From assembly GCA_951406725.2 (NCBI GenBank), contig OX597823.1, positions 20,274,001 to 20,338,000 on the forward strand: 64,000 nucleotides of DNA, in the 5' to 3' direction. Below the pieces are notes generated by a model. That model was not told the origin of the DNA. It did no database searches and was given only the letters and a program-made list of their open reading frames with translations. Both the position numbers and the translations under genes were made by a program. Shown piece by piece: positions 42,194 to 49,763 of this stretch. How positions within the stretch are numbered: position 1 is the stretch's first letter; each line of letters begins with the position of its first letter. Origin of the DNA: Octopus vulgaris. Lineage: Eukaryota.

Positions 42194-42198
<5 letters not shown>

Positions 42199-42833
42199 AA
42201 TCAAGGAACGGCCATAATAGGCCATTCACCCACTAGAAATAACAGCCAAAAGCTTTAACCGCAAAATAACATTAATACCGTAAACCAGGAGAAAATTGAA
42301 AAACTTTTACCCTGTAATTTCTTAGACGATGCACCGTTTCATCTACCGTTTAATGGTAAACTAACCTGATTAAATTAAATCAAGCCAATCCACCATAGGC
42401 CCTTAGACTCATCAGTAAGAAATAGCCAAATCGGGACAGATATTTTTCACGAGGCATTCCTCTTGCTGCCTCGGCAGTATCTGACCTAAAATTTTCAAAT
42501 CGTCGCACTCGCGCCAAATTTATCGGCAGCAAAAGAACCACCGATTCCGTTACGGAACTAACCAGAAAATTCATAATTAATCAATATAGGGTGGCAAAAA
42601 AATTTTGTAGAATTCTTTTGCCACCAGCGGCCTAGTAGGAAAAAATTAAATAGTCATAAACCATTTTTACGTTCAACATCACAATCAAGGAACGGCCATA
42701 ATAGGCCATTCACCCACTAGAAATAACAGCCAAAAGCTTTAACCGCAAAATAACATTAATACCGTAAACCAGGAGAAAATTGAAAAACTTTTACCCTGTA
42801 ATTTCTTAGACGATGCACCAAAATTTTTTTGCC

Positions 42834-42842
<9 letters not shown>
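42194..42842 (-). mobile_element. Retrozyme-like element: ~1.3 tandem units of a 484-nt HHR-containing monomer inserted in (TA)n
   Basis: Identical 142-bp direct repeats at 42194-42335 and 42678-42819; terminal 24-bp inversion 42819-42842 equals the reverse complement of 42584-42607; related copy at 49244-49726. Confidence 0.85.
42317..42423 (-). ncRNA. Intact type I hammerhead ribozyme with long stem II extension
   Basis: AUUUCUUA-CUGAUGA-GUCUA[...]UAGAU-GAAA-C-GGUGCAUC-GUC^UAAGAAAU; 8-bp stem I, all core bases present; predicted cleavage between 42325 and 42324. Confidence 0.92.
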
Positions 42843-47993: not shown

Positions 47994-48221
47994 TTACACA
48001 ATTTACATATTGGGTGGATGATGTTTCATGTCTTACTCACATGGGGAAGATCATTGCCCACAACGTTTGGTTCTTGAAACTAGATCATGGTAGATGAAAA
48101 CGGGGAAATTAATCTTCAGATTAAAAGCCTGGTCCGAATGCTTGCATCACCTGAAACACGACCACCAATAACAAAACCGCTCCACCCCATCATCACCACT
48201 ACCACCACAACCACCATCACC

Positions 48222-48253
<32 letters not shown>

Positions 48254-48968
48254 CAACAGCAAGAGGAACACCAACAATACGACGACGACCACAACCACCA
48301 CCACCACCATCACCACCACTACCAGCACAATCATCACTATGACAACCGCAACAACAGCAACCGCAAAAATACCACCACGACGACCACCATCGCCACCACC
48401 ACCAACACCACCAAGAACAGCAACAACAACAACAACAATAACAACAAAACAAAAGCAACAAGTGCAACACGACGATTACCACAACAAAGATGACCACCAC
48501 GCAAACGAGCAGCAGCAGCAGCAGCAGTAGCAGCAACATGCACAGCATGGAGAATAACATTTAAGTGCAACAGTTTATCCGCTAATGTCTGCAGTGAATA
48601 CTGAAACGCATCAATCTCCTCTTTATCTGCTGCTCTATCCAATAACCAGCCTCCTCTCTGGACACCTTTATCTAGAAGGTTCTTAGTTTCTCAGGCTCTC
48701 AGCTCACTTAATGATGTATCTTTCTATTGCATCAGTGCCTCAGTAGAGGACAGCTAACACACACACACACAAACACACACAATCAGGCAATAACACACAC
48801 ACACACATATATATATATAAAGAACTCTCTCTTCCTCTCTCTCTCATCTCTCTCTATATGTATGTATATATATATATATATACATATGCATGTATATATA
48901 GATATATATATATGTATGCATATATATATGCATATATATATATACATAAATATATATATGTACATGTG

Positions 48969-49188: not shown

Positions 49189-49243
<55 letters not shown>

Positions 49244-49247
<4 letters not shown>

Positions 49248-49718
49248 ACAATAAAGGAACGGCCATAATAGGCCATTCACCTACTAGAAATAACAGCCAA
49301 AGCTTCAACCGCAAATAAGCGTGGAATAAACTGCCTGCATCAGTTGTTGACTGCCATGACACTGCATCCTTTAAGGCCCTCATGCTTTCCGAAATCCGTC
49401 GAAACTACACCTGATTATATATACACTTTAGATGAGTTGTAGTGCACCTGAGCACTGTACACAATTATTATTATTATTATTATTATAAAAAGAAATTACA
49501 GGGTAAATGTTTTTAAATTTTCTCCTGGTTTACTGAATTAACTTTTATTTGCGGTTGAAGCTTTGGCTGTTATTTCTAGTAGGTGAATGACCTATTATGG
49601 CCGTTCCTTTATTGTTGATGTTGAACTTAAAAATGGTCTATGACTATTTTAATTTTTTCCTACTAGGCCGCTGGTGGCAAAAGAATCCTACAAAATTTTT
49701 TTTGCCACCCTATATTGA

Positions 49719-49726
<8 letters not shown>
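49244..49726. mobile_element. Second locus of the 484-nt retrozyme family: inverted arm (49244-49318), CR1-like LINE 3' end (49319-49486), sense part (49490-49726)
   Basis: 49490-49726 matches the reverse complement of ~42574-42807; the middle translates AWNKLPASVVDCHDTASFKALM and ends in (ATT)n; (TA)n on both sides. Confidence 0.85.

Positions 49727-49763
<37 letters not shown>

What the first reader, a model, noticed from the sequence alone, without database searches (positions are those of the whole stretch)
49490..49726. Second retrozyme copy starts at the predicted ribozyme cleavage site
Seen: homology begins at aagaaattacaggg (49490), within 1 nt of the GUC^UAAGAAAUUACAGGG cut predicted from 42317-42423. 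Inference: a genomic fossil of in vivo self-cleavage, in which RT ran off the cleaved 5' end and continued on the (ATT)n 3' tail of a CR1-like LINE RNA (49319-49486).
Basis: partly seen in the sequence, partly recalled or inferred. Interest (0 to 1): 0.75.

Follow-up and report, generated by a model that had tools for sequence, protein, structure and literature searches.

The report
Ribozyme cut leaves blurred insertion footprint
This is one of many hundreds of copies of a small jumping repeat with a predicted self-cutting RNA motif; across copies, copying stops about four times more often in the 30 letters just after the predicted cut (not sharply at it), which likely records RNA that had cut itself in the animal, while the LINE fragment lodged in this one copy is a one-off whose origin stays open.

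Summary
Observation confirmed: homology starts at +2 of the predicted hammerhead cut, behind a CR1-like LINE 3' end. The scan found this family and layout before on other DNA.

The proposed test fails as worded. In 188 insertions (333 5' ends) only 5 ends lie at -1..+2, but 84 lie in +1..+30 (7.1/kb, versus 1.9/kb just upstream and 1.6/kb elsewhere; step p 1e-8), peaking at +5, +8 and +22, and both arms stop there together (23/3/4/64). This likely reflects self-cleaved linear template plus trimming at end-joining; structural stalling is not excluded. About three quarters of first passes read through the cut.

The LINE junction is unique in the genome and ambiguous: the other arm's next bases (AAAG) explain the +2 start by microhomology, so later LINE insertion (about 35%) rivals capture during integration. 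Side finding: junction-only (T5A3)n reiteration at +22. New variant of a known kind; interest 0.5.

The parts
49191..49245 (.). (TA)n target, left side
   Evidence: the A-end plus (TA)n pattern occurs 179 times for this subfamily
49246..49318 (-). Inverted 'A' arm of the retrozyme insertion: monomer positions 57-131, 3' end at the first fixed start site (131) facing outward
49319..49486 (+). 5'-truncated CR1-like LINE 3' end: last 31 codons of ORF2 (stop 49412-49414), 3' UTR, (ATT)n tail 49464-49486; 2-nt AA microhomology at its 5' junction; same sense as the B arm
49487..49489 (+). Three A's of ambiguous origin: continuation of the A arm plus one A, or end of the LINE RNA
49490..49726 (+). 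'B' arm: monomer +2 to 238, 3' end at the second fixed start site (233-238)
49727..49752 (.). (TA)n target, right side
42197..42819 (-). Copy 1, A arm: 1.3 monomers (484-bp unit) of an older subfamily, 5' end at -11, read through one full hammerhead
42317..42423 (-). Type I hammerhead with long stem II; predicted cut between 42325 and 42324
   Evidence: RF00163; one compensatory and three one-sided pair-keeping changes between subfamilies
42820..42840 (+). Copy 1, short inverted B arm (about monomer 202-222) before (TA)n

Best explanation
This locus is one two-armed insertion of a young hammerhead retrozyme family into (TA)n, and the pile-up of arm 5' ends in the 30 nt after the predicted cut likely records reverse transcription of self-cleaved linear RNA, with the LINE piece probably taken in at the open joint between the two arms. 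Shown: each insertion has two head-to-head arms whose outer ends are fixed at monomer 131 and 233-238; inner (5') ends are scattered but 4-fold enriched in +1..+30, with a step at the cut; both arms stop there together. Inferred: a Penelope-like endonuclease/RT cuts both strands of (TA)n and primes one cDNA from each start site; on uncut multimers or circles it reads through the ribozyme (about 75% of first passes); on a cleaved RNA both cDNAs run out near +1 and are joined 3' end to 3' end at the nearest microhomology, trimming 4-27 nt, which turns a spike into a plateau. Inferred, weaker: here the B-arm cDNA 3' end primed copying of a CR1-like RNA from its (AUU)n tail for 168 nt (by either RT) before being joined to the A arm through AA.
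For: Architecture: 137 of 188 insertions have both arms with fixed ends (first seen). Histogram on copies chosen only by their outer A end: +1..+30 84 ends (7.06/kb), -30..-1 20 (1.94/kb), rest 229 (1.61/kb), step p 9e-9; holds in each subfamily (p 5e-6, 1e-3), with one arm per insertion (p 4e-5) and without the window. Coupling: both stop 23, A only 3, B only 4, neither 64 of 94 (p 8e-15). First pass 66 of 261 stop versus 17 of 153 later passes (p 5e-4), as expected for a class of monomer-length templates. The 24-bp stem II, the strongest helix, gives background rates (421-480: 1.4-1.6/kb), so helix strength alone does not explain it. Genome-wide exact patterns: 42 junctions at -2..+2 against 2,573 read-through sites, about 6/kb after correcting for 67% pattern sensitivity, versus about 1.5/kb at -9..-5 (my by-eye tally of the 100 of 211 rows shown). 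Two loci have both arms starting exactly at +1 (L066/67, L083/84). LINE piece sits exactly at the arm joint, with a complete tail, in B-arm sense; chance of a later insertion hitting a joint anywhere in the genome estimated at about 1% (inference from young-CR1 density, 1 further copy in the loci fetched up).
Against: No sharp peak: 5 of 333 ends at -1..+2 (4 of 329 without the window, p 0.09), one being an internal deletion (L349); 67 of the 100 rows end at +5..+8 and 10 at -1..+2 (by eye). A second cluster at 203-232 (38 ends, 4.45/kb) lies at a hairpin/U-tract with no ribozyme, so stalls elsewhere reach more than half the rate. Arms are also coupled outside the zone (18 of 62 pairs within 30 nt, shuffle mean 8.2). 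Cleavage of this ribozyme was not assayed; 8 of 9 frog retrozyme dimers did not cleave in vitro (Li et al. 2026) and hammerhead cleavage was not needed for a PLE in vitro (PMC11167929). For the LINE: the A arm's natural continuation shares AAG with +2..+4, expected at 9 of 492 random ends but in 17 of 102 ordinary joints (3 nt or more), which favours a pre-formed joint about 9-fold; it is the only such chimera found (0 of 187 other insertions has a recognisable foreign RNA between two arms). No autonomous PLE with sequence identity to the retrozyme was found.
Confidence: 0.55

Rival explanations
1. (On the LINE piece) The CR1-like copy inserted later, by its own TPRT, into a finished A/B joint that had formed through AAG microhomology; the +2 start is then a by-product and the B arm may really begin at +5, the family's mode.
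For: Removing the LINE and one copy of a flanking 4-nt repeat (ATAA) rebuilds the A arm's continuation to within one A. Microhomology of 3 nt or more in 17 of 102 joints versus 9 of 492 by chance. 4 of 29 other CR1 copies have AA(A) directly after the tail, so the site resembles its targets. The family is young, and later insertions into arms occur (L207).
Against: It must hit the joint within about 3 nt; I estimate about 1% for any such coincidence genome-wide (inference). The 4-nt repeat is not diagnostic: 5 of 15 well-called truncated CR1 copies show 4-5 nt repeats by the same lenient search and none more than 5 (7 rows with a mis-called truncation point dropped).
Confidence: 0.35
2. (On the histogram) The +1..+30 excess is a pause/dissociation zone on uncut or circular RNA (stem I base at +8, a local hairpin at 9-38, the U5 tract at +22) combined with self-complementary AATT/TTTAAA words that favour joining, and says nothing about cleavage.
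For: Modes at +5/+8 and +22 match stem I and the U-tract; second cluster at the 184-220 hairpin and U9 tract; coupling also outside the zone; 17 later-pass stops.
Against: The step falls at the cut, not at a helix; stem II and its AT-rich palindromic loop give background rates (80 versus 211 pattern hits); near-complete coupling and first-pass excess need a property shared by both arms.
Confidence: 0.25
3. (First reader's exact model) The Penelope-type RT ran off precisely at the cleaved 5' end and jumped end-to-end onto the LINE RNA tail.
For: Start at +2, complete tail, same sense, position at the joint; template jumping is known for non-LTR RTs (PMC8857657, listing only) and proposed for PLEs (PMC3846280, passage).
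Against: +1 U is missing and three A's are extra; exact run-offs are rare in the family; which RT copied the LINE RNA cannot be read from the sequence.
Confidence: 0.25
4. (On the histogram) The boundary is a transcription start or a degradation end rather than the ribozyme cut.
For: Earlier scan notes propose snRNA-type promoters in retrozymes of this genome (unchecked); the 203-232 cluster could be such a start.
Against: The edge coincides with the independently predicted cut to within a few nt; no promoter was tested here.
Confidence: 0.08

Closest known systems
Animal non-LTR retrozymes (Cervera and de la Pena 2020, PMC7229834, passages; Li, Clavereau and Pollet 2026, bioRxiv 10.64898/2026.07.22.740005, parts 1-3 of 5 read)
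   Same: Non-coding tandem monomer of a few hundred bp, one type I hammerhead per unit, low GC, dispersed monomers to multimers, PLEs present in the genome.
   Different: Monomer 484-492 bp; insertions are two inverted arms with two fixed outer ends in (TA)n; the passages read give no analysis of insertion 5' ends against the cut site.
EN+ Penelope-like elements (Frangieh et al. 2024, PMC11167929, parts 1-2 of 4; Craig et al. 2021, PMC8557442, passages; Arkhipova et al. 2013, PMC3846280, passages)
   Same: Head-to-head inverted 5'-truncated copy, 'tail' on one end equal to the distance between two RT start sites, extension of both target strands, AT-rich/(TA)n targets, palindromic and microhomology joints.
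   Different: No ORF; tail about 105 nt instead of 30-40; for the anole element hammerhead cleavage was dispensable in vitro and no RNA reads began at the cut, whereas here insertion ends pile up just after it.
R2 retrotransposons with HDV-like 5' ribozymes (Eickbush et al. 2013, PMC3774820, abstract only)
   Same: Genomic 5' junctions reflect where the ribozyme cuts; when the cut is at the element's end, junctions are variable and formed by chance microhomologies.
   Different: Autonomous, site-specific, one arm, different ribozyme, cleavage obligatory; here most arms read through the cut.
Chimeric retrocopies and endonuclease-independent LINE insertions (own knowledge; U6-L1 paper PMC4476161 and RT template-jumping paper PMC8857657 seen as search listings only)
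   Same: Two RNAs fused in one insertion, the second copied from its 3' end.
   Different: Here the foreign RNA is upstream, between two inverted arms, and a later insertion cannot be excluded.

Membership tests
Animal non-LTR retrozyme | Type I hammerhead in each unit | tested here: met
   RF00163 hit, core and helices kept between subfamilies with a compensatory pair; 2,573 exact cut-site read-throughs
Animal non-LTR retrozyme | Short non-coding tandem units, no LTR/PBS/PPT | tested here: met
   484- and 492-bp units in arrays up to at least 8-10 copies; no PLE-protein match in the window
Animal non-LTR retrozyme | Self-cleavage of the RNA | not testable with these tools
   only the indirect 5'-end footprint
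Animal non-LTR retrozyme | Expression as linear and circular monomers | tested here: inconclusive
   no run on record as RNA; contigs only; 9 locus-private variants shared by all copies in a locus versus 95 in only some is weak support for one template
Penelope-type insertion | Inverted 5'-truncated copy, tail / two fixed RT start sites | tested here: met
   137 of 188 insertions with arms ending at 131 and 225-243; A end fixed by selection, B end not
Penelope-type insertion | AT-rich / (TA)n target | tested here: met
   copies found without selecting for it also end in (TA)n
Penelope-type insertion | Sequence homology to the pLTR of an autonomous PLE | tested here: inconclusive
   intact 781-aa RT + GIY-YIG elements in (TA)n exist but none of 30 GIY-YIG loci and 10 extended loci shares DNA with the retrozyme; only 150 of 6,136 candidates were scored
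CR1-clade LINE (the inserted piece) | RT ORF2 3' end, short UTR, microsatellite tail, 5' truncation, no clear TSD | tested here: met
   clade name rests on recalled motifs, no tree was built
   5 of 333 at -1..+2; plateau +1..+30 instead
   4-nt ATAA repeat, within chance range; no empty allele seen, repeat masked

The most novel reading that the evidence does not exclude
Retrozyme insertion ends are a genome-written assay of hammerhead cleavage in the germ line: about a quarter of first-pass arms come from self-cleaved linear RNA and the rest from circles or uncut multimers, and at that cleaved boundary the telomerase-related Penelope RT does not simply stop but re-aligns and re-copies a short template (+22..+33, giving junction-only (T5A3)n runs, telomerase-style) or jumps to another RNA's 3' end, as in this locus.
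Probability: 0.3. Interest if true: 0.75.

Novelty: new variant of a known kind. Interest (0 to 1): 0.5.

Why it matters
What the hammerhead does in vivo for Penelope-like elements and animal retrozymes is open: the one in vitro system did not need cleavage and found no RNA ends at the cut (PMC11167929), and retrozyme models invoke circles. A step in insertion 5' ends at the cut is genomic evidence that cleaved linear RNA is also copied, gives a number (about 25% of first passes) and names testable positions. The single LINE chimera alone would matter little; the family-wide footprint and the junction-only repeat addition are the useful parts.

Tried and rejected
Whole-window Rfam scan: only microsatellite noise. 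Empty-allele search in four DNA runs: uninformative, the (ATT)n stretch was masked and no joint skipping just the LINE was listed among 15 of 17 shown. Expression: no RNA holder listed; four guessed-RNA contig sets cover the cut but cannot show ends. An 86-nt unknown piece beside an A arm (L141) found nothing, not even itself, so the search is uninformative. L147/L294: a PLE fragment next to an A arm turned out to be an older neighbouring insertion, not a partner arm. Second hit of the tail-plus-anchor pattern was chance. Autonomous partner by DNA identity not found. TSD test of the LINE uninformative. Rejected: MITE/DNA transposon (ends are not terminal inverted repeats; arms end at different monomer positions); deletion of the upstream part by the LINE (upstream is normally the inverted arm). 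Rows dropped before counting: L240 (duplicate of neighbouring L239), L333 and L342 (A arm too short to call); 6 arms censored by locus edge or N. Not-in-print searches: searches gave no paper on retrozyme insertion 5' ends versus the cut; the library lacks most subscription papers and no supplements were read (Fig. S9 of PMC7229834 and Fig. S2 of PMC11167929 may bear on this).

Full report
1. The observation. Window 49490-49726 matches the minus strand of 42807-42573 at 92%. The element at 42197-42840 carries a type I hammerhead (Rfam RF00163, 42319-42421, 22 bits, below gathering) whose predicted cut is between 42325 and 42324, so 49490 is position +2. Between the two subfamilies in the window the core is kept and stem II shows one compensatory and further one-sided pair-keeping changes. 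Copy 2's own subfamily (492-bp unit, 99-100% identical) has a GUA triplet. 49319-49486 is the last 31 codons, UTR and (ATT)n tail of a young LINE family (40 of 40 scored hits at 99-100%; RVT_1; CR1 label from recalled motifs). All real. The window is G000:C10:20274001-20338000 in a 2.8-Gb animal genome.

2. What was missed. 49246-49318 is an inverted copy of monomer 57-131. Both copies in the window, and the family as a whole, are two head-to-head arms in (TA)n whose outer ends are fixed at monomer 131 ('A') and 233-238 ('B'): 137 of 188 insertions chosen by their A end have a B arm ending at 225-243. This is the Penelope footprint: inverted truncated copy, tail, two RT start sites, both strands extended, AT-rich targets (PMC11167929, parts 1-2 of 4 read; PMC8557442 and PMC3846280, passages). 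Intact 781-aa RT + GIY-YIG elements ending in (TA)n are present, but I found none sharing DNA with this repeat. Earlier notes of the scan report this family and layout many times; I had reached it before looking (note). The LINE piece therefore sits at the joint between the arms, and nothing upstream needs to have been deleted.

3. I sampled insertions only by their outer A end: the first 100 of 179 matches for the young subfamily and the first 90 of 402 for the older one, plus the window's copy 1; 3 rows were dropped (one duplicate, two with uncallable A arms), leaving 188 insertions, 339 arms, 333 inner 5' ends. Ends per kb of arm passing each position: +1..+30, 84 ends, 7.06; -30..-1, 20 ends, 1.94; rest, 229 ends, 1.61; step p 9e-9. 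It holds in each subfamily, with A arms only, and without the window. But at -1..+2 there are only 5 ends (4 of 329 without the window, p 0.09), one of which (L349) is an internal deletion ending at +1. The modes are +5 (9), +8 (12) and +21/22 (23). Exhaustive patterns agree: 42 junctions at -2..+2 against 2,573 read-through sites; of the 100 of 211 rows shown, by eye 67 end at +5..+8, 4 at +3/+4, 10 at -1..+2, 17 at -9..-2 and 2 are false; a same-design control in stem II gave 80 hits. So the cut is the upstream edge of a plateau, not a spike.

4. Why I read the plateau as cleavage. Both arms stop there together (23 both, 3 A only, 4 B only, 64 neither; p 8e-15); first passes stop more often than later ones (66 of 261 versus 17 of 153); the strongest helix, stem II, causes no excess; two loci have both arms starting exactly at +1, joined through the terminal TA. 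Joints show microhomology, short fillers and a filler templated from the flank (L148), which fits end-joining with trimming; variable, microhomology-primed junctions are what R2 elements give when their ribozyme cuts at the element's end (PMC3774820, abstract). Against: a second cluster at 203-232 (4.45/kb) has no ribozyme; arms are coupled elsewhere too (18 of 62 within 30 nt, shuffle mean 8.2); the modes coincide with the stem I base and a U5 tract; cleavage is unassayed; and most arms read through the site, so circles or uncut multimers remain the main template. Weak support for a single template per insertion: 9 private variants shared by all copies in a locus, against 95 in only some. I put cleavage at about 0.65-0.7 and stalling at 0.25.

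5. The LINE junction. For capture during integration: exact position at the joint, complete tail, same sense as the B arm, and a low prior (my estimate about 1% genome-wide) that a later insertion hits a joint. For later insertion: the A arm's natural continuation is AAAG, which shares AAG with +2..+4 and accounts for two of the three extra A's; such a match occurs at 9 of 492 positions by chance, while 17 of 102 ordinary joints have 3 nt or more of microhomology; a 4-nt ATAA repeat flanks the piece, though 5 of 15 well-called truncated copies of this LINE show 4-5 nt repeats by the same search and none more; 4 of 29 other copies have AA(A) after the tail. It is the only tail-to-cut-zone junction in the genome by pattern. 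Public contigs could not show an empty allele. A hybrid, in which the LINE enzyme used the nicked, half-annealed joint as primer, explains both sets of features. Either way this locus alone is not a clean fossil: under the second parse the B arm could start at +5.

6. A by-product. At B-arm ends at +22, 11 insertions carry 2-8 tandem copies of a T-run/A-run unit matching +22..+29 (6 with three or more), whereas 0 of 330 read-through passes do (4 exact-pattern hits genome-wide for one register). The unit is what re-pairing the cDNA's terminal A's at U30-U33 and recopying would write, as telomerase does; PLE RTs are telomerase relatives (PMC8557442). Slippage by a host repair polymerase on the partner cDNA would give the same, so this is a lead only.

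7. Verdict. Known kind (animal non-LTR retrozyme, Penelope-type insertion; PMC7229834 passages, bioRxiv 10.64898/2026.07.22.740005 parts 1-3), found before by the scan. New here is the quantified 5'-end footprint. I found no paper reporting it in searches (open-licence library only, no supplements read); unchecked scan notes report ends exactly at the cut for other ribozyme families of this genome, which would make the offset in this family worth explaining. Observation confirmed, interpretation partly supported, interest 0.5.

Noticed in passing
L128, L132, L144, L146, L164, L167, L173, L197, L198, L202, L239 (arm joints); G000:C2:161836354, C14:59162356: Junction-only tandem (T5-7 A2-4)n runs at B-arm ends at +22, absent from 330 read-through passes; reiterative copying by the RT or by a repair polymerase.
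   Followed up: partly
monomer 203-232 (window 49691-49720): Second cluster of 5' ends (38, 4.45/kb) at a 14-bp hairpin with a U9 tract between the two start sites; stall site, protein-binding hairpin or transcription start.
   Followed up: partly
L349 / L065 (G000:C3:65450638): Internal deletion of about 20 nt of the hammerhead whose downstream breakpoint is exactly +1, as if copying reached the cut and resumed further upstream.
   Followed up: no
L291-L301 (e.g. G000:C16:20836745-20839087): Young, intact Penelope-like family: 781-aa RT + GIY-YIG ORF with a cysteine linker, a second upstream ORF of 330-480 aa, tandem repeats in the 3' region, ends in (TA)n; candidate mobiliser, no DNA identity to the retrozyme.
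   Followed up: partly
run X6, loose ends at L016:912-1028: Contigs with clustered T-to-C changes (A-to-G on the other strand), like ADAR hyper-editing of the inverted arms; could be RNA or edited copies fixed in DNA.
   Followed up: no
run X7, record 22: A single 523-nt contig (492 + 31) spans the stretch, the length expected of a closed cycle in the assembly graph; fits a circle or a tandem transcript equally, and the run is only guessed to be RNA.
   Followed up: no
L141:1927-2012: 85 nt of unidentified sequence between an A arm and (TA)n, ending in a B-end-like ATATTG; possible arm from another RNA; search uninformative.
   Followed up: partly
L207 (B arm, monomer 380-386); L148: A 175-bp (CAT)n-headed repeat inserted into an arm with a 7-bp duplication; and a joint filler copied from the downstream flank.
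   Followed up: partly
window 48084-48560: Low-complexity stretch with open frames rich in T/N/Q/H codons (possible exon or trinucleotide repeats) about 700 bp before the insertion.
   Followed up: no
monomer position 406 (hammerhead N7): The most variable core position among young copies is N7 (G, A or U), the one known to be free (own knowledge), consistent with selection on activity.
   Followed up: partly
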